In this document: piece by piece, positions 25,257 to 59,866 of the stretch
How the letters are laid out: each line of letters opens with the position of its first letter
Numbering within the stretch: position 1 is the first letter of the stretch
Program-made: the position numbers and the translations under genes
The notes under the pieces: model-generated
Databases searched by the model: none
What the model was told of the DNA's origin: nothing
Seen by the model: only the letters and a program-made list of their open reading frames with translations
NCBI GenBank assembly: GCA_045837725.1
Contig: JBEWZL010000232.1
Coordinates: forward strand, 434,001-498,000
DNA: 64,000 nt
Origin: Vermamoeba vermiformis
Taxonomy: Eukaryota
Direction of reading: 5' to 3'

Positions 25257-28200
25257 ATGAGCACGAGAGAACAGAGAAGACTATCAACTATCTTGACACA
25301 TTTAGGTGTCAATGAAAATAGTTGCATTGATAGACAGGAGACCTCTGGCAAAGAGCTCGCGTTAGACTACAAGCAGATCTTAGTTGAGGAGAGAAAGAAG
25401 GCCACGTTTGATTCCAAGCAACTTAACTATTTATTGGATGGTGGACAAGACGTGACATTATTAAAACAAAAGGCAAATAAGATTTTGGAGCAAGATCCGA
25501 TCTTGAGCCAACGATATTTTGGAAAGACAAGAGATGAAACTCTCCAATTGTACGTAAATAATTTTATAGTAACTGAGGGTTTTCTAAATTAATATTTATA
25601 TTAAATTTTGCAACGGTAACTTCGCTAATCCTCTATCAAAATTCATTAAAAATCTGGTTTATGCCTAATAATTTATTAATGACCAGAATATGCTTTATTT
25701 AATACTCGTACATTCATCTAAATTTCTATTTGCCTGCCAGGACAATGGCTAAAGTACGTCGCTTCTTGTCTCTGAAGCAATCATTACCTACAAAAGAGGC
25801 AGAAGCACTTTGGATCCAAGCAGCTTACAGCGATGAATCATTTGGTATGAGAGCAGGTGTTCAGAGCTTGCTAGTTGAAAAAACACTGGCGTTGCACGCG
25901 CATCCAGAGATCAACGGTACAGAACTGCTAGAAAAAGTCAGAAAGTGGGAGGTAAGTTTCGTGCATATGAAATATTTTAGAATTTGATTTAAATCATTTC
26001 ATTTTGAAATCGCGCCATTACGAAACGACATCTGCAGATTGAATCCATTTTTCCTGCCACCCGTTTTATTATTTTGAGTTTTGAAGGACCCAATAAGGGT
26101 TCCAAAAATTTGGTCATGTCAGTGACATCGACCTTATCTGCTTGGAAGTTCTCAACGAGCAATACTCCAAATCTGCCGAGACATCATGTTTCGGAGTGAT
26201 CGCCCCAAGCGCAAGGATGAAAATAACCTACTACGGTTACCCGCTATTTATGCTGTTCGCCGCAAATAACTATTGTGGTTCTTTTCTGTCGTGAAACAGT
26301 AAGGCGATCTCTCTGAATCTGCAGTTCGTAATCTATGATTGGTAATTTAATCAATTTGGATAGAAAGATCTTGTTTTAACCACCATCAAAGAATTTTTTT
26401 GACTTATGCGGATAACGCGAGTACCACAATAATTTAACGTCGGTTTGGAATTCCTCCACAAAACGGCAAATTGAGCCAGAGTTGTTTTGTAGGCTTGCGT
26501 TGGGCAATAATAGCCCCCTCGTCTGTCACTTCGGTGATTTCAACTCAACTTAATGAACTAACCTTCAATTCGAGTGGATGTGCGTGTAACTCGCACCCGA
26601 GCCTACTATCTTTTTTTTTTGACCGGCAAGAAATCTCTTTCCTACTGAACTTTTTACTTGTTTCGCATAATGAACTATTTCTGTACTTTCGGCCACAAAA
26701 TTTCCATTCCCATTTGGTTCTGAAATTTGTGGTTGGGGCAAAAACCGTCCGAACTTTCTTACCATAATTTTTTGGTAAACAAACATTGGCCAAAACAAAA
26801 TACGTTGTACGCCATTGCATGTTTTGAGAAGGTGCCCTGTAACCGCGCTTCATCGTTTATTTCGTTATTGATTTCCAATGATTCATAATACAACAACCAC
26901 AAAGAAAATTTCTATACTTCGGACTTAAGGCTACTGGGCCTGCAATGCAGGTCTGGTAGTCTTTGCCGCAGGATGCGCGATACGCAATCACTTTCTTTTT
27001 GCTTTTTGGGATCAGATTCAACATCTCGCAACGCATTAGTTTGTAAAGCTTTCTCATTTATTATTAGATTATTGGCTGCTATGGCATGACTGAAATGGGT
27101 CAAGGATCTAACTTGCGCTTTCTCGAAACGACAGCCACTTACCGTGAAGATCTGGAGTCGTTCGAGATCAATAGTCCAACTGTTACTTCTGGTACGTACA
27201 TCTCGTCATAAATATCATAACTATATAGCCATATTATTTGCACGAGACAAATTTGTCGGGGGTCGGGCGATCCACCAAATCGAGGATCCGTTTTGATGGA
27301 CTCAGAAATTCTTTTCACACTTAGTATCCTACTAACACTCGTAAATATTATAGCTAAGTGGTGGCCTGGACTTTCAGCGCACACTGCCACACATGCCCTT
27401 GTCTTTGCACGCCTGCTCGTGAAGGACGAAGATCATGGTCCGCACATCTTTGTCGTGCCTATTCGACGCGTAGATGACCACAGAATCATGCCACACGTGA
27501 CTATTGGTGAAATAGGCAGCAAGATGGGTCGTAATGGTGTTGATAGTAAGTAAATTCATTCATAGTAACGTTATGACAAGTCACGGATCTGACAACTAAC
27601 TATTTGCTTTTTCTAATTAGATGGATGGTTCAGATTCGAAAATGTCGTTGTGCCTCGTACCAACATGTTGATGCGATTCACTCAAGTATTGCCTGACGGC
27701 ACTGTCAAGAAGAGTGGTATCACTCAATTAGCTTACGTAAGTCAACTGAAATCTTACCCTCAAGACTAATCGATGTCTAATAAGAAACGCATTATATGAC
27801 CGTTACTAACTCCTATTGTTTTGCAGAGTGCGTTGATCGGTGGTCGTGTGACGTTTGCCAAGGCAGCAGCTGAGATCGTGAAGCGTGCCATCACCATTGC
27901 TATTCGTTACAACTGCGTGCGATTAGTGAGTCAAATTCCTAGCGATAAGAAGACAGCAAGCATTCTTGACTTCCAAGTGCAACAAGCCTCGTTATTGCCT
28001 ATTTTGGCAACGACTTACGCCATTCACTTCGGATCCGTTGCTCTCCACGAACGCTATCAGGACTTGATTGCCAAATTAAGCAATAACAACCAAAGCAATG
28101 ACAATTCTACGATTGGCTTGTTGGCAAGAATTCACGCCGAAGCTGCGGGATTGAAGAGTTGGACCACTGATTGGGCCACTGTTGCGCTCGAGACATCTCG

Positions 28201-36412: not shown

Positions 36413-37893
36413 ATGGAGAACAACACTACGTGGTCCCCCGAGCAATTATCGCTCTCATTTCTCCCAGATGAGCTACTCGTACTTATTTTAAGTTATATAA
36501 CGCGGACAATTGATAAGCAGAGGTAAGTCACCGGATTTGAAACTGATCGATCTCAAATTTTCACTTGAAAAAAGCTTTATTAATCGCAATTAATTTTTAA
36601 AAATATAGTACGAGCTTAGTATCACGAAAATGGTGGAAATTATCGTGGGATCTGACAACAAAATTAGATATTTATTTTGGACAAGCAGTATTAAACAAAA
36701 TGGAGCTTACTGATTTTCAACGAGTCTCGCAGCACTGTAATAATGTTACAGCACTATATTTGACACGCATTACGCTATATTCAGTACCTATCTCGTGGCT
36801 AGAATTATTTTTCAATTTGCCGCGAGTCACGCATCTGACTTTAACAGCATTAACAATGTACGATATTATTTGGCTTACCAATATGATGCAACTTAAATCA
36901 CTAGCTGCTTGGAAATTTGCTGAACGACGATATGAAGAGCTAGATCAGCTTACAAATTTAACGCATCTCGATCTGTCAAACAACGAGGAAGAAATTAGCG
37001 CTTTGTTGCTAGGAAAATTGACAAATTTAGTGAGCCTGTCATTTATAGACTTATTAGATGCAGAATATATTTTCCTAGCGCTCACAAACCTCACCAAATT
37101 ACGGATTCGATCGCTAACTTCAAACATCAATCTAGCGAATATAACCAACTTAAACAACTTGAAGTGTCTCATTATGAACGGACCAACATATGATGCAAAT
37201 TTGGATCATATAGTCAAACTTTCAAGCCTCGAAGCGATCAAATTAAGTTACTCTTACACGCATTCAGTTTTCGCGGAAAAAGGATTGATGAAATTACTTC
37301 AAATGACCTCATTAACGAAGATATCATTCGCTGGTGCCCATGTTAGTGGAGCTAGTTGGTCCTTATTGACGCACATGACCAATTTGAAAAGTTTGGATCT
37401 TAAAGGCGCTCATGCCAGTGTTTCAGTGAACGGCTGCAGAACGATTGGATTTATTCAGCAATTGCAAAAATTCGAATTTCCATTTAATACAGCAATGGAT
37501 GCGATGTTAGAGACAATAATTAATACTGGCATCGAGTTGAAGTCACTGATTATTCATAATTGTCAACAAATGACCAGATCCACCTTAAAATTAATCGTTC
37601 AGTTAACAAGCCTGCAAAAATTAGAATTAGACGAGCTCAGTATGATACCTGCAAACGATTTATACGAAGTGACAGTACTGTCTAATCTCCGAGCACTTTC
37701 GCTGTCAAAAACTTGGCGCAGTTCAGATCAGCTCTTAGTTAGACCATTTTTGGCATTAACCAAATTAAGAAAACTCGTTCTTGGCTGTCACGTGCTCAAA
37801 GAAGAAGCGGATCTGATGCAGCCATCAACGATGATATTTTTGGAGAAATTTCATTGTAGGAAGATTATAACCCGTCCAACTCATACATTATAG
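36413..37893 (+). CDS. F-box/LRR protein
   Basis: Exon 1 LSFLPDELLVLILSYI; exon 2 LTNLxxLxL repeats. Confidence 0.85.
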
Positions 37894-37976: not shown

Positions 37977-40900
37977 TTATTTTAGCTTTTGTATCGGTTT
38001 AATGGGCTCTAAATAAACATAGATACCAAAAGCTAAAATTATTGCAGCTATAACAGCGTACAATAAGTACTCGTACGGAAACGGTTTCTTTTGGAGTTTT
38101 GCGATCTTTGTAACGACTTGTTTTTGTTTCTTTTGGGCCTCTTCTCTTTCTTCTTTCTCGTTGACTTTGTTTTTCTTTTCTTTTTTCTTTTTCTTGCTTT
38201 CATCCTCCTTAACTGATATTTCTTTCTTTGGCTTTTCCTCCTAAATTTTTTTGTTAGCGGATCTCGATCAAAGCCGTACTTTTGGGCCATTAGTATAATC
38301 TTACCTGAACTGGTGGAGCAATTGGCTCTTTAGGACAGTTTTCATCGCATTCTAATAACGAATCAACTCTTGCGGCAAGTTTTCTGTTCTTCCTCTCCGC
38401 TTGAGCTTTGGCACATTCCCACTTGTCTTTCTTTGTGCCGCATTTGCACGTGATTTTCACAAGTTTAGGACAAGAGAACCTCGCACACGAACCTATGAAT
38501 GTGGTGTAAATACGATGCTTGGTGACTTGCAGATCTAGATCCAAACTTACCGAAGTGACACACTTGAGAGCAGCGATGACTGCAAGACAATAAGGGCTTC
38601 ATGCAAATTTCTTTGCAAACAGTACTGAAGCCGTCGGCTATAGCCACGTGACACGGTACTTTCAACGGACTGAGCACAGGGATTAAAAATTACGTCGTGG
38701 CAACTGACCCTTCGAGGTACTTACTTTCGATGAGAGTGGCACTGGAAGGTTAATGTAATTTGACATGGCGGGCATGCATTCAAGTGACAGCCGAGAGGGC
38801 AAATATGACTGCAGGTGCGCGGGTTGTCACAGGATGCTTTGCATTCGTCACATGGCTCGGGCTTCTCGTTGGCTAAAGTAGGAGCCCAAATACTTTTCTT
38901 TTGCTTCTTAGTCTTGAATACTATCGGCTTAAACTCTATTCTCTCTTCTTTAACTAGTTTCAGATGTGTTTTCGTGTCTTCAACAACATCTCGTCGTACT
39001 TCAACGATGTGACATTTCTTTTGACACGTGTGTTTGCCGCACTTAAGCAGCACACCACACTTATCAGGGCAACTTAAATAGGGCTCGCTCTTACAAGGCA
39101 TTTGAGTAGTCTAAAATAACTATGTTAATCAACGGAGCAAAAGTTGGTGGATCAAGATTCGGCGGATCGAACTCACCTTGTGACCTCCTCGACAACTCTT
39201 GGTGACAGTATGATCGAGGTCGTAGCCAACTTGACAACTAACTTCTTTAGACTCGCCACCGCAAAAGCACGTCAAAACTATCGTCTTGGGACAGTCCTGA
39301 CATTTGCCCGTGTGACACAACGCTTCGCACGTGTGATTTTTACAATTCAGCGTCTTGCCACAAATTTTCTTGCAAGGAGGGCAATTAACTCCTACAAAAA
39401 CAAAAAGGTGAGGAGACTGCAATAAGGCAAAGAAAGAGAGCCAAAAAAAAAAATCAATGTGCCAACCCCTGGAATTGAACCAGGATTTTTGGAGCCACAA
39501 TCCAATGTTCTTCCGTTGAACTAGGTCGGCTTGTTAATTTTGGTTGGCCGAAAAAAATTGGACCTGACGGGTACAGCAACAACCAACTCCGTCTTTCGCC
39601 ATCTTCGTGGATTTGCGTCCTTAATTGTTCTTTAATCGCCTGTAAAGACTTACCATCGCAACACCTCGTATTGCACGGATGTTTGCCGCACTCCCGCATG
39701 TTCTGACAACGTTTCTGACAATAGAACTCTTCAGAGCAGAGCACTTCGCCTTTAGTCTTGCCACAATGGCACGTTTTTTTCTGCACGTTCGAGTGGTCAG
39801 TAACGAGTACTATACATCTACACTAAGATAATCATACGTACGACTATATCTCGACAGTTCTCTTCGCAAGGACCAGCGTGACATCTCATCGTGCACCGAT
39901 GTGCTCCACAACTCAGCTTCTTGTCGCACGTGTCACCGCACGACGTCACTTCTTTCGTGCACGCCAAGACCATCTTTTTCTTGCCGCAGAAACATGTCCT
40001 ACACGGGGTTAGCCAACAAAAATATTGGATAAATAACACGCACCTCGGTAACGTCCTCGGGCAAGGTCCGCAATCACCAGCATGACAAATCTATATCATA
40101 TCAATTAGAGTTACGTCCATGGTATGCATATGTGCACGTACCTGTTCGCACTTGTGATGACCACATCCGTAGGACTTGCCACAAATATTCTTACATTGGA
40201 ACACGTCTTCGTTGCACGGACGTACTTCTCGGACTTTTTTACATTGACAGTATTTAGCGCTCGTCATACTGCACGGAGGGCAATCGCCTGGCAAGTAAAC
40301 CGTTGGATCAGATCAAAGTTTAGGGTGGCAATAATAAGGGAGCTATGAGACGTACCTGCGTGACACACTTGTTCGCAGTGATGTTGGCCACATGCTAGTA
40401 ACTTGTGACATACTTTGTTGCACGTGTAATTCTTCTCAGAACACCGACGGACCTGCGTGGCAGATCCACAATAGCACGAGTACCTCGCTTGAGTAGGGCA
40501 CGGTGGACACCTGCCCGAGTGACAGGGCTGCACGCACGAGTGTCCACAATCAGGTTTTAATTGTTTACCGCACAACTCTCCGCACTACAATGTCGTTTTT
40601 AGTGCGTGTCACATCAATCATAAAAACGCTTATATGAATAGCAATAGCCTTCTATAGTAAAAATTATTCGTGTCACGTACTGTGTGAGGAGGATTCCACG
40701 GGTTAGGCTCGGGATTTAATGTTTTGCCGCAGTAACAGTAATAGTTCTTAGGTGCTTCTCGGACCAAATGTGCTCCTCGACAATTCGGACTAAACACATT
40801 ATAATTAGTATTTTCCTAGTGTATCCAGCAATCACATACCAGTTCCACTCTTCTTTTAATTTAGCAGCGGGAAATAACTCTTCAGACAAGCCCTAAAGTA

Positions 40901-44800: not shown

Positions 44801-47800
44801 ATTAGGGAGCTATCTGACTTCAAAGTTCAAACTCGAATTGTTGATTGGAGTTTTGCCCAATTGGTCCAATCAGAATTCAAGCAGAAGTTCGTGGAAACGA
44901 TCAAACCTTTCGTACCGAAGCACATTTACTACAAAAGAATTTGGCAACGACCTATTGAGATGTTCGAGATTGGTCTTAATATGGCTAGAATATACAGACG
45001 AACTCAAATTTTTGATCACGAATCGAAGCTGGTACGAAAGATTTCCTAATTTGGAACTACTTAATATTTCTTCGTTACTGCGGACTCATTGATTAATATT
45101 GTTTAGTTATATACGCATGATCCTACTAAGCCAAGCACCGAAGGCATGAAGGATTTTTTGACTACTTTGGCTCTTTACACGGAGTCGTTGGACTGCGCGG
45201 AAAAAGTTGCCGTAGAATTCGCTAATTATGTTAACGGAACAAAAGATAATCCTACAATGGTCGAAGAATTCTTCCTCAAGTAAGTAACTCGATATTTTTT
45301 TTTTAATTCGAGTCAAAATTAATTTATTGGTTTTCAGGGGCATTGCTCGATGCGGATTGAACAATAACAGCAAATTTATGAAGCTATTGAAGACTTTGAC
45401 GATGGAAATTATTGGTCCTGCGATCAACCACTTCAAATCCACTTACTACGCGGAATTTCCATTTAAGGTAAGCACAATTTTTCAAACTCTTTCTTAGTTA
45501 CAAAGTGCGTCATTTTTAATTCAACCAGAGCGATTTTATCAATTTTATTCGTTCGAAGGAAATTTCGCAATTTTTTGTCTTTTGAGGGACATTTGTAAGG
45601 TTGAAAAGGCAGTCATCAAGCAATCCGACCTAGTTCAATTGGCTAGAACAGCAGGCTGTGACCCTGACAATCCTGGTTCAAGTCCAGGGGTTGGATTCTC
45701 TTTTTGCCCTCGTGACAACCACATCCGTTTTTTTGGAGTCGGATCCTATCTGAGCTTGCGGTATTTTTTTGACTGGAATTTGGAGCGCACATAATATTAT
45801 CAATAGCTGCACATTATTTAGTGCATCGCTGAGTTACGTAACTTTGCACATCTTAAGCCCGCAGCGGCTCTTAAGTTTTTCTCAACTTTGCTGCTTGGTT
45901 ACGTCAAATGTCCCTTTCCATACAGTCGTGTCTTTTGCACGACTTCTTTAGTTTTTGTGCTTGACGGGTATCAAAAGGCGCTATAGCTTAAGTGGTAGAG
46001 CACCGGCCCCCGGAGTCGGTTGTCCTGGTTCAAGTCCTGGTGGCGCCTCATTTCTTTTTTGCCTTCAGATTATCCAATTTTAAGTACTTAGATACGAAAA
46101 TTACCGCGTTTTTTACAACATTTCATTCCATCACGTCATTTAATGCACCTTTCGTTTGATCCTGATCTAACACTTTTTTTTGTTAGGACGTGAAAGGCTC
46201 TTGGGTGACAGAATTATACTTGGAGCCGCCACAAAACGTTAAGCATTCTTTTGCTTTTACAGATGGTATTGGAACTGAGCAAGAGAATCGTTTGTACAGC
46301 AGTGGATCGACGGATGTGGAGTACGATGGCGCTAAGATTATTCATAAAAAGCGAGAAGAGACCTATCAAACTAATACTGAAGAGTCATACTTTACATTCG
46401 AGTGGCAGGTATGTTTCCAACTAATTTAGCGGATGTGACAAGTCAAACTAACCAATCATTAGCTCGTGATGATTTGCACGCGTGGGCTCGATGACTTGTC
46501 AGTAGACTTGCGTATTACGGATATTTCACTATTTGCTGCTAAAAAGTAAGTAATTTAAAACATTTCTCGAGGCATCCCTAACGCGTATTTCAGTGAACGA
46601 AAAGTCAACGTGCAACAAGCGTTCAAGAGTTTGGTACGGTTTATACTATCACAAGTGATGTCTCCAAGCTAACTTGGTAATTATACAGGTTCGTGATAAC
46701 TCCAAAGTGTTCCAAAAGGTCACGAAGATGAATGTTCAAGATGTCGTTGATGTAGCCATTGGCACCGTGAAAAAGCTCTCCGTTACTGATATGCCAAAGG
46801 TAATCGCAATGCTCTATTTACTACTCGATATTGTTATTAACGGTGTTTTGGAAGATTGATCACCCACACATTGCCGAAGGTGTCAATTTGTTGTCGTTGC
46901 TTGAAGCACTTCGCCGAGCATTAAATCACGTCGAAGTTGAGATGCCTAAAGTAATCTTGCCGACCAACAGACCCAGCTTCGAACTGGTCGAGGCAAACAT
47001 GTCTCGCAAGAACACGAGCAACAATCCTCCTCCCGTTCGTTCAGCTGTCAATTCTACGAACCTTGGTAACATTAAGAGTGGCATTGTTAACACTGGCATA
47101 GCTCCGAGGTAATATTAAACGACCTATATGCTGCAAAAAGATAGGTCTAACATTGTACCATTAGAGCTGAGCCGCTCATTGGCTCCACTCAAGCACGTCG
47201 CTCAAGTCACAAAAAGTCGAACAGTCTTGTAGACATGACACCGTTGTTGCCCACGCCAGCACCTGTAGCTCCTTCGACGCCGGGAGGAATTTCCTGGAGC
47301 AATAGAATGGCCGCAAAACCTGCTGGTGTTCCCAAGGGATTCACACTGCGAAACCCTCCAAACATGACACAAAACAGACAGTTGCCGCCAGTCCCAACAA
47401 CAGCCCCTTCTTCGCCTCCTTCTGGCACGAGTTATTTGATGCAACGTCCGAGTGCGCTGAACACGCAAGTTACGGCTAATAACAATAACACCAATCAACC
47501 AGTGGGTACCGTTGATACGGCTAAAAAAGTCAGCAACGCTGGTGTGAGCATTAATTACAGCAGTTCAATGTCAAAAAATAACAACGTGGTCAACTCGAGC
47601 TACGGCAATGAAAGCATGCTCGAGCGCAAGTCATCGGGCAGTCACATCCCGGCGCCGCCCGAGATTGTTGCTTTGAATAACACGCAAATAGTCAATAACA
47701 ACATTCAAAAGTTCAATGCAATCAGCAACAACTCGCCGAGGACAACGACGATTGCGACCTCGAGCAACATCTACCCGTCATCTTCCATGTCTTCTCCTGC

Positions 47801-55938: not shown

Positions 55939-57557
55939 TTATTTTCCGAGCAAAATCAGCTCATATAATCTCGGCATTTTCTTTTTTAATTCTTTTGCGT
56001 CCAATTGGACACATTTTCTGTCAATTCCTCGAAGAATAAGAACTTGTAAAGATGTCAAAAGTGTCAAATTCATGTTAACGTCTGTCATGCTCGAATCAAA
56101 GACGGACAATTGCGTCAAATGATTCAAATTAGTAAGGCGCCCTATTATACTTTCATTATGAAGCGTTGAATTGAATACCGACAGCCGCTCTAATGTCGTG
56201 ATTGTTGAAATTCGTTAATGAATTCGTTGTCGATGTGGCCAAGCTCCAAATTTTTTAGAGGTAAATTCTGAATGCCGCTGAAATCTACAAACTTGGTTGC
56301 TGTACCATTAAGAGTGAACTGTTCTAAAGCACTGAATTTTCCTAGCTGAAACAGTCTAGTTGAATTCGCTCGCCAGTGAAGCACTAGATGTAATGTTCGC
56401 AGCGTTGTCAATCGTTCAATGGCTTCAAACATATTTTCATCAGCACCAAGCATTCTTAAATGTGTCAAATTTGATAAGAGTGCTAGATCCGGCAACATTT
56501 CACAAGAATAGTTACTGACGTTGAGAACTAATGACTGCAAATTGACAAATTTGGTAATGTAAACGAACGCATATTGAGCTTTGTATTCTAGCGCCGTTAA
56601 TTTGGTTGAAGAAATATAGGCCAAACAGGCGGAATAATCTCGATCGTCGGCAATATTCAAGTTGAGACTTTCCAAATTTGTTAATGCTGTCAAGAACTGA
56701 AAATCTGTCGCTTTGCACGTTGGCCATTCAACTAACAATCTTCGTAGATTGGTCAATGCTGAAAATTCCGAGAAATCAATTGTATTGCAGTAACCTTCCA
56801 ATGACCGCAACTTTGGTAGATTTGACAAACCACGAATGTCTGCCACGTCAAAAAACATCGTTTCCAAATTAGGCAAGTACGGAATATTGAAAGAGCGTGC
56901 ACTTTGTAGAATCAAGTCGGCAAGGTTTGGAAAATGGGTCAAATCTGCTTCGTTGAAGGCTGGTCTCTCGCTAATACCAATTGCCATACTACGTATATGC
57001 TTCGTATGAGGTAATATAAGTGACATATTTTGAGTCGAGCCTTCATTTTCATCTTCTGGAACGCTCCACGTAACGGATTCAAGTTTTGAAAACCGAGCGA
57101 GATCGAGTTCCTGCGCGTCACCAATGCTTTCCAGAAAGAGGTCTCGGAGGTTTGTGAGATGCCTACGAATTCTATTGTTTCTAGTGATGCTAACATCCAT
57201 TTCTTGCAGATTTGTCAAGTTTGTTAATGGATCGAGTACCGAATCAGGATCCTGATTATAGTTTCTTATTGTGTTAAATATGATTTTTGTTAATTGCGTT
57301 AATTTTCCAATATCCTCGTAATCTTTTGCTGACAATGTACATTTTGATTTTTCAAAAACAACGCTGAGCGGGTGATTGTATTTTGCGAGTCTTTGAACGA
57401 GCTGTGGAATTCGTTCTTCCGTTGTAAAATTAAATATAAAATCGCTGTATTGTATTTTGTTGAACCAATCGGTATTTGCAAGCCTCATAATGCGACGGGA
57501 CCTGTCATCCAGAAAAGATACGATTATTCTTCTGATCTCCGTTGGTAATGTCTCCAT
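55939..57557 (-). pseudogene. F-box/LRR protein, intronless, with 1-nt frameshift near 56211
   Basis: METLPTEI F-box; the shifted frame continues ISTITTLERL...KMPRLYEL, parallel to the adjacent paralog. Confidence 0.7.
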
Positions 57558-57902
57558 AGCGCACTATAAAATATAATTCATTCAATATTATTAATAATAT
57601 TCGTTAATTATTATGGTTTAATTGAACAGAATAAGCATCCACTTACGGGTCAAAAAATCCTCTGAATGCTGTTCAACGATCAATACTCATAATGAAATGA
57701 AAATATATCGGTATGTGGTATTGAACTTAAGATAAGAGAAATACTAAATGGTCGACGTCGACAATTGATTTCGATTTGTGATTCGCCTGTCGTGTCAACG
57801 TAGCAGTTATAGCGCCGGTAAAAATTTCATATCTAGCGTTCATTAGGCCTCGAATTTACGTATCAAATCTATTCAGTCTTAAGGAACTCAATGATCATTT
57901 TA

Positions 57903-59507
57903 TTATGCAGTTAACTCGTACAATCTCGGCAATTTCTGTTTCAGCACTTGCTCGTCCAATACTTCTCCATTTTTCCTCGTAAATATAAGCCGCTGCAAAG
58001 ACGTCAACAGTGTCAAGTGTTCGCCTGTTAGATTAGTGTCTTTGAGTATTAAGTATGTCAAATTAGTCATATTTGTGAGGTACTGTATAGAATTATCATT
58101 TGATAGTGTTGATTTGTGAGAAGTGAGTGACTGTAATGTTGTAATCATTGAAATTTTTTCCAAGAATGAGTCGTCAATGCCAGCAACATTTAAAGCCTCA
58201 AGTGACAGATGCTGAATATTATTGAAATCTATCATTTCATTCACCTTCAATGTACTAGGAATTTTAAAGTATAACCTCTTTAAAGCACTTAACTTTCCAA
58301 TTTGCAAAGATATTTTTGAATTGTTGGGGACACTAGTCAGATCCAGCTCCAAACTCTTCATGTTTGTTAACTTTTCTACTGCTAATAATACTTCTGGTTC
58401 AGCACTTTCAATGCACAAATGTGTCAAATGCATTAATTGTTCTACAACTGGCTGGTCACAATTTAAACACTTCAATGACTGCAAATTACCAAATTTGGTA
58501 ATGATATCTGTCTGAACAAAAGGATATTCCAATTCAGTCAATTTCTTTGAAGAAATAAATTCCAAGCCTGTGGACCAATCATGTATCTGATCATCATCCA
58601 GCCACAGACTCAACTTGAAACTTTCCAAATTTGTCAATGCTGTCAAGAACTGCAAATTTTCGATTGCTAACTCATTTTCAGCCCAATTAATATCCAGCAT
58701 TTGTAACTTAGTCAGCGATGCAAGTTCTGTAAAATCAGTTGTGCCATAAAGTTCTAATGATGTCAACTTTTGGAGTTGCGCCAATCCACCAATCCGTTTT
58801 GTATACAAAAATAACACTTCCAAATTAGGCAAGCAAGGTAGATTGAAGGAACAATGGGAACTGTAAAGATGCAGTTGATTGAGACTGTGAAATTTCGTCA
58901 AATTAGTTTCGTCCATTGCTTGCCGTTGGGCCTCGCTGATACTTATAAATAGATAACTGATAGCTGTAGCGTGAGGAGTAATTGATAGAAAATCTTTAGT
59001 CGAAATTTCATAGCCGTCTAAGCCCCAGGTTAAAGATCGAAGTTTTGAAAACCGAGCCAGATCCAAGTTCTGCACTTCATTAATACTGTTTAGGCACACA
59101 TGCTGCAAGTTTTTTAAGTGCTTAACTATGCGTTTGGGCATGTTGTATTCGACTTGTTGCAGATTGGTCAAGTTTGTTAATGGATCGAGCACCGAATCAG
59201 GATCGGATCCGTTTCTAATTGAACCAAACACAAATTTTGTCAGGTGCGTTAATCTTCCAATATCCTCGTAATCTTTTGCTGACAATGTACATTTTGATTT
59301 TTCAAAAACAACGCTGAGCGGGTGATTGTATTTTGCGAGTCTTTGAACGAGCTGTGGAATTCGTTCTTCCGTTGTAAAATTAAAAATAAAATCGCTGTAT
59401 TGTATTTTGTTGAACCAATCGGTATTTGCAAGCCTCATAATGCGACGGGACCTATCATCCAGATAAGCCACTATAATTTTTTTGATTTCGCTAGGAAGGG
59501 TATCCAT
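57903..59507 (-). CDS. F-box/LRR protein, intronless tandem paralog
   Basis: MDTLPSEIKKIIVAYL followed by LRRs; ends KLPRLYELTA. Confidence 0.88.
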   Translation of the reverse strand: MDTLPSEIKKIIVAYLDDRSRRIMRLANTDWFNKIQYSDFIFNFTTEERIPQLVQRLAKYNHPLSVVFEKSKCTLSAKDYEDIGRLTHLTKFVFGSIRNGSDPDSVLDPLTNLTNLQQVEYNMPKRIVKHLKNLQHVCLNSINEVQNLDLARFSKLRSLTWGLDGYEISTKDFLSITPHATAISYLFISISEAQRQAMDETNLTKFHSLNQLHLYSSHCSFNLPCLPNLEVLFLYTKRIGGLAQLQKLTSLELYGTTDFTELASLTKLQMLDINWAENELAIENLQFLTALTNLESFKLSLWLDDDQIHDWSTGLEFISSKKLTELEYPFVQTDIITKFGNLQSLKCLNCDQPVVEQLMHLTHLCIESAEPEVLLAVEKLTNMKSLELDLTSVPNNSKISLQIGKLSALKRLYFKIPSTLKVNEMIDFNNIQHLSLEALNVAGIDDSFLEKISMITTLQSLTSHKSTLSNDNSIQYLTNMTNLTYLILKDTNLTGEHLTLLTSLQRLIFTRKNGEVLDEQVLKQKLPRLYELTA

Positions 59508-59866
59508 GGCTGTGAAAATACGAATAATTAATATTAATTTATTTGAAAGCACAGCAGGTTTTTTTAATTAATTTTGCTTTTGCGAAACGCAATAAGGCAA
59601 AGTCTCCATGCCGTTATTGGAAAGCAAAAATACGCTAACTTAAGTTATTAAGAAGCCCGCTTGATTGATTCACGTACCTTGCGTGTGGATCTTTGTAGTA
59701 GAGAGGTAGAGATCAAGAAAAAAAGGACTGTTCTTTAGTTTAAATGCTTTTCTTGATTACGAAAACAACAAATGCAACACCCACATTAGGCATTATTCCT
59801 ATGTAGTGTTAAAGCAAGCAAAGAATCAACTCTAAACTGGATTCATCAAGAAGGCTCGCTATCAAA

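What the first reader, a model, noticed from the sequence alone, without database searches (positions are those of the whole stretch)
25952..27067. Unidentified ~1-kb highly structured RNA hidden in an acyl-CoA oxidase intron
Seen: this intron is 1116 nt against ~55 nt typical. Domain 1 is closed by a bipartite long-range helix: ATTACGAA 26017-24 with TTCGTAAT 26325-32, and CTGCAGATT 26032-40 with AATCTGCAG 26316-24. Inside are serial hairpins (GGACCC/GGGTTC, GGTCATGTC/GACATCGACC, TGCTTG/CGAGCA, CCGAGACA/TGTTTCGG) and a multiloop closed by GATCGCC 26198-204 / GGCGATC 26303-09. An unpaired TATTGTGGT (26271-79) pairs with ACCACAATA (26423-31) outside the domain, which would be a pseudoknot. G-U pairs favour the sense strand. 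I find no convincing hallmark of snRNA, SRP, RNase P/MRP, group I/II or known ribozyme cores. Inference: a novel or very divergent ncRNA (telomerase RNA or P/MRP are architectural possibilities), or a splicing-regulatory structure.
Basis: partly seen in the sequence, partly recalled or inferred. Interest (0 to 1): 0.78.

Follow-up and report, generated by a model that had tools for sequence, protein, structure and literature searches.

The report
U4 snRNA gene nested in intron
The "mystery structured RNA" is mostly an ordinary U4 spliceosomal RNA gene lying backwards inside the intron, next to one or two small, still unidentified RNA units on the forward strand.

Summary
It is not one ~1-kb RNA.

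- **U4 gene.** Rfam places a full-length U4 spliceosomal snRNA (RF00015, 53.7 bits, threshold 46) on the MINUS strand at 26218..26089.
- **U4 promoter.** The "pseudoknot" 9-mer is a USE/DUSE-like upstream element 61 nt before U4 +1, and a TATA-like box lies at about -30.
- **Unit A.** The same 9-mer, inverted, lies 66 nt before a second unit, 26489-26608 on the + strand. Unit A is 120 nt with paired ends, is followed by T10, and gives poly(A)-tailed reads. One compensatory base-pair change separates it from a diverged strain.
- **Unit B.** A third + strand unit (~26900-26999) ends inside a T5 run. Neither A nor B matches any Rfam family. They could be new small-RNA genes or a short repeat family.
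- **Closing helix.** The long-range helix exists but is near chance level (0.5 expected per shuffled window).

snRNA genes nested in introns are well known, so the core finding is ordinary. Units A and B are the residual interest.

The parts
25952..27067 (+). Host intron of an acyl-CoA oxidase gene (GTAAGT...TTAG, phase 0), 1116 nt
   Evidence: Frames. Splice joint with net 1116 nt removed in RNA reads. Flanking exons hit Acyl-CoA_dh_M positions 1-31 and 34-87, then ACOX_C_alpha1 and ACOX.
26086..26218 (-). U4 spliceosomal snRNA gene. +1 = 26218. The Rfam match ends at 26089, and the 3' hairpin can extend to 26086.
   Evidence: RF00015, 53.7 bits (gathering score 46), E 3e-9 / 8e-11, model positions 1-138 of 138.
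26202..26218 (-). U4 5' segment AUCCUUGCGCUUGGGGC (the U6-pairing stem II side)
   Evidence: Aligned to Rfam consensus positions 1-17 at high posterior probability. The role in U6 pairing is established knowledge.
26165..26196 (-). U4 5' stem-loop with K-turn-type internal loop (..CAUGA UGU CUCG GCA GA..).
   Evidence: Rfam alignment and structure line.
26152..26164 (-). U4 UAUUGCUCGUUGA segment (the U6-pairing stem I side)
   Evidence: Matches Rfam consensus UAUUGCUAGUUGA except one base, with high posterior probability.
26112..26133 (-).
26102..26110 (-). Sm-site AAUUUUUGG
   Evidence: Aligned to consensus AAUUUUUGG with posterior probability 9-*.
26086..26103 (-).
26270..26280 (-). USE/DUSE-like upstream element AACCACAATAG. 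ACCACAA starts 61 nt before U4 +1.
   Evidence: Comparable elements lie at -58..-71 in 7 of 115 other U4 loci, including TACCACAATTG at -63 in L092. DUSE motif and ~60-63 nt distance come from PMC3188802 and PMC7919456.
26244..26252 (-). TATA-like box CATAAATAG at -34..-26 of U4
   Evidence: Read. 50 of 115 other U4 loci have TATA[AT]A at about -40..-18.
26422..26432 (+). Second copy of the element, TACCACAATAA, in divergent orientation. ACCACAA starts 66 nt before the 5' end of unit A.
   Evidence: the only two exact ACCACAATA in the 64 kb are these two.
26489..26608 (+). Unit A: 120-nt structured RNA unit of unknown family. It has a terminal stem 26489-26500/26595-26606 and a C(UUCG)G hairpin.
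   Evidence: Fold z -3.03. RNA depth up to 27+9.9 against 0-1 on the exons in X21. Poly(A) sits directly behind 26608 in 15+16 reads, and a back-joint marks 26489. One compensatory pair change, and no pair-breaking variant among 10 variable sites. No Rfam match.
26611..26620 (+). T10 run 2 nt after unit A (Pol III-terminator-like)
   Evidence: Read. The terminator role is inferred.
26900..26999 (+). Unit B: ~100-nt structured unit with a 17-bp hairpin (26927-26963) containing several G-U pairs. Its 3' end lies inside T5 26996-27000. The 5' end is not defined.
   Evidence: Fold z -4.93 on +, -0.54 on -. RNA depth about 19 in X21 and poly(A) behind 26999 in 5 reads. A diverged paralogous contig is in X3. 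Two minority variants break pairs.
26017..26040 (.). Left arm of the bipartite inverted repeat (ATTACGAA..CTGCAGATT), 46-69 nt beyond the U4 3' end
   Evidence: Marginal statistics (0.5 expected per shuffled window).
26316..26332 (.). Right arm of the inverted repeat (AATCTGCAGTTCGTAAT), at -98..-114 of U4

Best explanation
The intron is long because independent small-RNA genes are nested in it. It has its own external promoter: a USE/DUSE-like element at -61 and a TATA-like box at -30. It is presumably transcribed by RNA polymerase II, since there is no T-run after the gene. Its RNA would pair with U6 through the 5' segment and the UAUUGCU segment, bind a 15.5K/Snu13-type protein at the K-turn stem-loop, and bind Sm proteins at AAUUUUUGG. 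Those steps are inferred from family knowledge. Head-to-head with it, 271 bp from start to start, lies unit A (26489-26608, + strand). It carries the same upstream 9-mer, has paired ends and is followed by T10. I read unit A as a separate small-RNA gene, probably Pol III-type, whose transcripts are trimmed to the terminal stem and adenylated. Unit B (~26900-26999, + strand, ending in a T5 run) may be a third. What looked like one ~1-kb RNA is these units plus unremarkable spacer, read as a single strand.
For: U4:
- Full-length Rfam match above the curated threshold on the minus strand.
- The 5' segment, K-turn internal loop, stem-I segment, Sm site and 3' hairpin all align to the consensus.

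Promoter:
- The only two exact ACCACAATA in 64 kb lie at -61 of U4 and -66 of unit A, in divergent orientation.
- 3 of the 5 AACCACAA in the window fall in this intron.
- A TATA-like box lies at -34..-26.
- Of 115 unrelated U4 loci, 51 carry TCCCACAT in the -80..-38 region scanned and 50 carry a TATA box. Seven carry [AT]CC(C)A[ACT]AA at -75..-50, against 0 and 2 in control windows. L092 has nearly the same layout as here.
- DUSE ([AT]CCCA[AT]AA, two Cs in some species) lies ~60-63 nt upstream of dictyostelid snRNA and other ncRNA genes (passages of PMC3188802 and PMC7919456).
- The window's closest named protein relative is from Vermamoeba, an amoebozoan.

Units A and B:
- Structure is strand-specific.
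- RNA reads have sharp poly(A)-tailed 3' ends at 26608 and 26999, and read depth exceeds that of the host exons.
- Unit A has a compensatory U-A to C-G change. None of its 10 variable sites breaks a predicted pair.

Nested snRNA genes are common:
- 47 of 120 in C. elegans (PMC3342880 Table 1).
- Human RNU4ATAC lies antisense in CLASP1 intron 2 (PMC12703291).
Against: - The U4 score (53.7 bits) is far below the 87-108 bits of 12 comparison U4 genes, so it is divergent, or possibly a decaying copy.
- Only about one RNA read touches U4. The libraries are labelled plain cDNA RNA-Seq (I assume poly(A)-selected), and the tool drops human-like reads, so this is uninformative rather than negative.
- No U6 is in the window to test pairing, and no orthologous locus could be obtained.
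- The degenerate DUSE-like pattern occurs 107 times in the window. The promoter argument therefore rests on the exact 9-mer, its position, and the comparison loci.
- Unit A has no TATA box.
- Its reads carry long A tails and come in several sequence variants, with 5'-truncated back-joints. That also fits a retroposon-like family.
- Two minority variants in unit B break its hairpins.
- The AACCACAA near unit B lies inside the read-covered region, not 60 nt upstream of it.
Confidence: 0.82

Rival explanations
1. Units A and B are not genes. They are copies of short retroposon/SINE-like repeat families. The poly(A) in the reads would be genome-encoded tails of other copies transcribed within other RNAs. 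U4 is still a nested gene.
For: Reads show several sequence variants at 26585, 26587 and 26600, and divergent 5' parts in the loose ends. There are poly(A) runs, and back-joints of the form 3' end, then A12-18, then variable internal start points (26506, 26509, 26560). An X3 contig carries a diverged copy of unit B with different continuation.
Against: This copy of unit A is followed by TC+T10, not an A tail. There is no other copy in the 64-kb window and none in 672,861 bases of other eukaryotic contigs. Unit A shows a compensatory change and no pair-breaking variant. The same 9-mer as the U4 promoter sits at the matching distance upstream. I found no target-site duplications by eye.
Confidence: 0.3
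2. The U4-like sequence is a pseudogene (a retroposed or decaying duplicate) and is not expressed.
For: The score is low relative to other U4 genes. The stretch right after the 3' end is A-rich. Only about one read was laid on it. snRNA families turn over fast (PMC3342880).
Against: The match is full-length with every functional segment conserved. A USE/DUSE-like element and a TATA-like box sit at canonical distances, which a retrocopy would not bring along. The score is above Rfam's curated threshold.
Confidence: 0.1
3. One reading: one long sense-strand structured RNA (telomerase RNA, RNase P/MRP-like, or new) or an intron structure that regulates splicing, closed by the 26017-40/26316-32 helix.
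For: The inverted repeat exists and brackets a 316-nt segment. The + strand of 26010-26340 folds at z -2.62. The 3' part of the intron is more structured on the + strand.
Against: The hairpins are explained by U4 on the other strand. The two strands fold equally well over domain 1. No Rfam family of those kinds matches at E up to 10. RNA coverage is discontinuous. The closing helix is near chance at window scale. The spacer 26609-26879 folds at z -0.96.
Confidence: 0.03

Closest known systems
U4 spliceosomal snRNA (Rfam RF00015)
   Same: Full-length match to the model. It has the 5' U6-pairing segment, K-turn 5' stem-loop, UAUUGCU-GUUGA segment, Sm site and 3' hairpin. Its length of ~130 nt matches the 128-150 nt of the comparison genes.
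   Different: Divergent: 53.7 bits against 87-108 for 12 other U4 genes. The best identity to any of 120 fetched U4 loci is 76.5% over 81 nt. The central stem-loop and parts of the 5' stem align poorly.
snRNA genes nested in introns of protein-coding genes (C. elegans snRNA genes; human RNU4ATAC in CLASP1 intron 2)
   Same: An independently promoted snRNA gene lies wholly inside a host intron, here on the antisense strand as for RNU4ATAC/CLASP1 (PMC12703291 passages; PMC3342880 Table 1).
   Different: The host gene (acyl-CoA oxidase) and the lineage (probably an amoebozoan) differ. The same intron also carries one or two further small-RNA-like units.
DUSE-driven small-RNA genes of dictyostelid amoebae (spliceosomal snRNAs, Class I RNAs)
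   Same: An upstream element with a CC(C)A-AA core lies about 60 nt before the start. It is shared by different small-RNA genes and is associated with both Pol II and Pol III genes. Class I RNAs also have paired 5'/3' ends and T-runs downstream (PMC7919456 and PMC3188802 passages).
   Different: The motif here is ACCACAA, with C where the published DUSE has A or T. Unit A is 120 nt rather than ~42-65 nt and lacks the CTTACAG motif. The authors did not expect DUSE to be conserved outside Dictyostelia.
Upstream-element plus TATA snRNA promoters (the TCCCACAT-type element found in 51 of 115 fetched U4 loci; the name 'plant USE' is recalled, not from a call)
   Same: An upstream CCACA-containing element sits at about -60 to -70, together with a TATA box at about -30.
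   Different: The element has one C fewer and different flanks. The centre-to-centre spacing to the TATA-like box is about 27 bp here. Which polymerase that implies cannot be said from these data.

Membership tests
U4 snRNA (RF00015) | Covariance-model score at or above the curated gathering score, over the full model | tested here: met
   53.7 bits vs 46, model positions 1-138 of 138, minus strand 26218..26089.
U4 snRNA (RF00015) | Conserved 5' segment and UAUUGCU..GUUGA segment that pair with U6 | tested here: met
   Both align to the consensus at high posterior probability. Actual complementarity to this organism's U6 is not testable, because there is no U6 in the window and no genome is held.
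U4 snRNA (RF00015) | 5' stem-loop with K-turn internal loop (UGA opposite GA) | tested here: met
   CUCC G AAA CAUGA UGU CUCG GCA GA UUU GGAG fits the structure line, with one non-standard closing pair flagged.
U4 snRNA (RF00015) | Sm site followed by a 3' terminal hairpin | tested here: met
   AAUUUUUGG at 26110-26102, then GGAACCC UUAUU GGGUCC.
U4 snRNA (RF00015) | Expressed as a stable ~130-nt RNA | tested here: inconclusive
   About one read in X21 and none in X23. The libraries are cDNA RNA-Seq, and the tool drops human-like reads.
snRNA-type external promoter | Upstream element at about -60 (plus TATA at about -30) | tested here: met
   ACCACAATAG at -61 and CATAAATAG at -34..-26. Comparable layouts occur in other U4 loci. 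Function was not tested.
Dictyostelid Class I RNA (considered for unit A) | ~42-65 nt, short terminal stem, conserved ~11-nt motif with CTTACAG core, DUSE ~60 nt upstream | tested here: not met
   Unit A is 120 nt. No CTTACAG lies in the intron: of 7 window matches, the nearest is in the exon at 25824. Only the terminal stem and the upstream element resemble the family.
SINE/retroposon family (considered for units A, B) | Many dispersed copies with A tails and target-site duplications | tested here: inconclusive
   Reads show variants and A tails. This copy, however, has T10 and no A tail, and there is no second copy in 64 kb. Without the genome, copy number cannot be counted.
   No such match at gathering scores or at E up to 1 (25700-27300) or up to 10 (26400-27067).

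The most novel reading that the evidence does not exclude
Unit A (and perhaps unit B) founds an undescribed family of ~100-120-nt structured, Pol III-type small RNAs in a tubulinean-like amoeba. It would be driven by the same DUSE-like upstream element as the neighbouring U4 gene. That would mean the DUSE-type small-RNA promoter is older than Dictyostelia, and that small-RNA genes in this lineage are organised as divergent pairs nested in introns.
Probability: 0.35. Interest if true: 0.5.

Novelty: new member of a known kind. Interest (0 to 1): 0.3.

Why it matters
The main result is a correction: an apparently novel 1-kb RNA is a standard spliceosomal U4 gene read on the wrong strand. That is a reminder to scan both strands of oversized introns for nested RNA genes. 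The modest positive value has three parts.
- It annotates a divergent U4 gene and its promoter layout in a poorly studied amoeba-like lineage.
- It gives a hint that a DUSE/USE-like element about 60 nt upstream is used outside Dictyostelia.
- It flags two structured, expressed, unclassified small-RNA-like units for follow-up.

Tried and rejected
- No whole genome is held for the window, so genome-wide copy counts, the U6 partner and other snRNA promoters could not be examined.
- Earlier scan notes held nothing by place or by sequence for U4, unit A or unit B.
- A metagenome scan with an invariant 21-mer of unit A gave 0 hits. Viral-contig scans with the unit A and U4 21-mers also gave 0 hits.
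- A metagenome scan with a U4 signature gave 120 loci, none from a close relative.
- The other two AACCACAA sites in the window (21196, 34797) have no obvious small-RNA gene downstream.
- Aligning the regions downstream of six CCACAA sites showed no similarity beyond the core.
- A degenerate DUSE pattern is too frequent to be informative, with 107 hits.
- I examined units A and B by eye for U1, U2, U5, U6, U6atac, U11/U12, U3, 5S, Y/vault RNA and box C/D or H/ACA snoRNA signatures. I rejected all of them, because the defining boxes or an Sm site are missing and Rfam is silent.
- The stretch 26629-26844 has a U-rich loop-like motif and an AAUUUUUUGG, and I considered it as a U5. I rejected this: no Rfam hit, no reads, and fold z -0.96.
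- I considered the flanking inverted repeat as MITE-like terminal repeats. No target-site duplication was seen, and it is left unexplained.
- The key Dictyostelium snRNA paper (Hinas et al. 2006) is not held. I saw only its title, in a reference list.
- Supplements of the cited papers were not consulted.
Full report
**1. Observation**

Each of the eight hairpin arms occurs once in the intron.

The intron is real. The upstream exon ends ...EKVRKWE at 25951, followed by GTAAGT. The downstream exon starts [15 protein letters not shown] at 27068, after TTAG. RNA reads from two samples join the exons with a net 1116 nt removed: 8 reads in X23 and 1 in X21. The joint is shifted by one letter because the RNA strain differs.

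The host is an acyl-CoA oxidase.
- The exon after the intron matches Acyl-CoA_dh_M profile positions 1-31, and the next exon matches 34-87.
- Later exons give ACOX_C_alpha1 (2e-35) and ACOX (7e-45).
- Homologues of the last exon are acyl-CoA oxidases, at about 33% identity at best.

Neighbouring introns, read, are about 192, 162 and 70 nt. This one is therefore 6-16 times longer than its neighbours, although 55 nt is not the local norm.

**2. What domain 1 is**

Rfam finds a full-length U4 spliceosomal snRNA (RF00015) on the minus strand at 26218..26089. It scores 53.7 bits against a gathering score of 46, with E 3e-9 for the window and 8e-11 for the region, over model positions 1-138 of 138. 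The alignment covers these elements:
- the conserved 5' segment AUCCUUGCGCUUGGGGC;
- a 5' stem-loop with the UGA/GA internal loop of a K-turn;
- the UAUUGCUCGUUGA segment;
- a central stem-loop;
- an Sm site AAUUUUUGG;
- a 3' hairpin.

- GGACCC/GGGTTC is the 3' hairpin.
- GGTCATGTC/GACATCGACC is the central stem-loop.
- CCGAGACA/TGTTTCGG lies in the 5' stem-loop.
- The arm GATCGCC (26198-204) is U4 nucleotides 15-21.

A weak + strand match to a nematode snoRNA (E 0.41) is simply the complement of the U4 5' end.

Over 26010-26340 the two strands fold equally well: -88.0 kcal/mol, z -2.62 on +, and -89.7 kcal/mol, z -2.00 on -. Nothing there favours the sense strand.

**3. Is it a gene?**

On the U4 strand, ACCACAATAG begins 61 nt before +1, and CATAAATAG lies at -34..-26.

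I fetched 120 U4-bearing metagenome contigs with a U4 signature. None is a close relative. Only 3 of the 120 gave a BLAST hit at E up to 1e-3, the best being 76.5% identity over 81 nt. They still serve as a promoter comparison. Among the 115 with at least 100 nt of upstream sequence:
- 51 carry the 8-mer TCCCACAT in the upstream region scanned (about -80 to -38), and 50 carry TATA[AT]A at about -40..-18.
- 7 carry [AT]CC(C)A[ACT]AA at -75..-50, against 0 and 2 in two control windows of similar width (26 and 25 start positions).
- The two loci with the most similar U4 (L024, L036) have ACCCATAA at -58.
- L092 has TACCACAATTG at -63 plus TATAAAATA at about -35, almost the layout seen here.

In dictyostelid amoebae the DUSE element [AT]CCCA[AT]AA lies about 63 bp upstream of many ncRNA genes, including all spliceosomal RNA genes of D. 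purpureum (passages of PMC3188802). Some species have two Cs instead of three. The distance of about 60 nt is conserved, and the element serves both Pol II and Pol III genes (passages of PMC7919456).

An expanded F-box/LRR protein of the window has as its closest named relative a Vermamoeba vermiformis (Amoebozoa, Tubulinea) transcriptome protein, at 40% identity. An amoebozoan origin is therefore plausible but not established.

Against a healthy gene:
- Twelve comparison U4 genes score 87-108 bits, so this U4 is divergent.
- Only about one read touches it. The libraries are cDNA RNA-Seq, which I assume to be poly(A)-selected, and the tool silently drops human-like reads. I treat this as uninformative.

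**4. The rest of the intron**

The structure is strand-specific and local.
- 26341-27067 folds at z -3.76 on + (0 of 20 shuffles as good) and z -0.42 on - (7 of 20).
- The signal sits in two units. Unit A, 26489-26608, has z -3.03 on + and -2.38 on -. Unit B, within 26880-26999, has z -4.93 on + and -0.54 on -.
- The spacer 26609-26879 is unremarkable, at z -0.96.
- Rfam finds nothing credible there at E up to 10.

RNA reads pile up on exactly these two units.
- Depth reaches 27+9.9 in X21 and 5.1+14 in X23 at the 3' end of unit A. It is about 19 in X21 on unit B. The host exons are at 0-1 in X21 and about 5-7 in X23.
- Poly(A) sits directly behind 26608 in 15 + 16 reads, and behind 26999 in 5 reads.
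- Depth is zero over 25966-26137 and 26267-26481.

Unit A has these features.
- Its ends pair (26489-26500 with 26595-26606).
- A back-joint from 26608 to 26489 (4 reads) marks the same 5' end.
- It is followed by TC and T10.
- The only other exact ACCACAATA in the 64 kb lies 66 nt upstream of it, in the opposite orientation to the U4 copy.

**5. Variation as a structure test**

The RNA strain differs from the window at 5 places in the 72 exon bases laid upstream, so it acts as a diverged relative. I mapped the ten variable sites of unit A onto its predicted fold.
- 26526 T>C (20 of 20 reads) and 26537 A>G (17 of 17) are the two sides of one pair in a C(UUCG)G hairpin, changing U-A to C-G.
- 26600 A>G (21 of 53) keeps its pair as G-U.
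- The other seven sites are unpaired.
- None breaks a pair.

This is modest evidence of selection on the + strand structure. It rests on one compensatory event and on a fold predicted from this same sequence.

Unit B fares worse. One variant keeps a pair, four are unpaired, and two minority variants (8 of 22 and 4 of 23 reads) break pairs.

Several observations show that both units exist in more than one copy in these organisms: partial-frequency variants, divergent 5' parts among the loose ends, back-joints with A12-18 followed by internal start points, and an X3 contig carrying a diverged copy of unit B. That fits either a small gene family or a short retroposon-like family. There is no second copy in the 64-kb window and none in 672,861 bases of other contigs.

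**6. The long-range helix**

The bipartite inverted repeat (26017-40 / 26316-32) brackets U4 together with about 100 nt upstream and about 50 nt downstream. It is the only such repeat in the window, but 40 composition-matched shuffles gave 0.5 per window. I found no target-site duplication. I leave it unexplained, with chance not excluded.

By my estimate, the 7-nt GATCGCC/GGCGATC pairing is at chance frequency for a 1.1-kb sequence.

**7. Comparison with what is known, and verdict**

snRNA genes nested in introns are common. 47 of 120 C. elegans snRNA genes are nested (PMC3342880 Table 1, passages). Human RNU4ATAC lies antisense in CLASP1 intron 2 (PMC12703291, passages). In one fetched contig a U5 gene lies about 160 nt from a U4 gene (L022).

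Unit A is not a dictyostelid Class I RNA. It is 120 nt long, and no CTTACAG lies in the intron.

One search for papers holding both 'Vermamoeba' and 'snRNA' listed a single paper, whose title and abstract concern an RNA ligase rather than snRNA genes. This is not proof that nothing is in print.

Verdict: the core of the finding is an ordinary, though divergent, U4 snRNA gene nested antisense in an intron. It is a new member of a known kind. What remains of interest is two unclassified, structured, expressed small-RNA-like units, and a DUSE/USE-like promoter element in what is probably a non-dictyostelid amoeba.

Noticed in passing
L022:46-151 (-) and L022:309-438 (-): In an unrelated metagenome contig, a U5 snRNA gene (77.3 bits) lies about 160 nt from a U4 gene (88.4 bits) on the same strand. 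Tight snRNA gene clusters therefore occur elsewhere.
   Followed up: no
window 25880-25951 and 27068-27140: RNA runs carrying the same species label differ from the window at about 5 of 72 and 3-4 of 73 exon positions in all reads. They come from a clearly diverged strain or cryptic species.
   Followed up: partly
window 26629-26844: A contig from a run labelled as a different organism (X7, depth 7.6) is identical to this spacer stretch over 216 nt, yet nothing else of the 1261 nt laid is held by that run. No RNA reads map there and the fold is unremarkable. Unexplained: it could be a repeat, contamination or a shared element.
   Followed up: partly
window 56190-57563 (-) and 57903-59567 (-): Two tandem paralogous F-box/leucine-rich-repeat ORFs have nearly identical N-terminal ~100 residues. 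A third LRR ORF lies at 36601-37893. This is an expanded family whose closest named relative is from Vermamoeba.
   Followed up: partly
window 39460-39530 (-), 45624-45696 (+), 45977-46048 (+): Three tRNA genes, scoring 53-66 bits.
   Followed up: no
window 27330-27336: The next intron (about 27192-27353) contains TACTAAC 17 nt before its AG, which looks like a yeast-type branch-point motif.
   Followed up: no
window 26726-26735 / 26894-26903 and 26693-26702 / 26723-26732: Further CCACAA-containing inverted repeats lie inside the intron (a 10-nt perfect pair, and a local hairpin). 3 of the window's 5 AACCACAA sites fall in this 1.1-kb intron. The two sites beyond the U4 copy are not at promoter distance from any read-covered unit.
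   Followed up: partly
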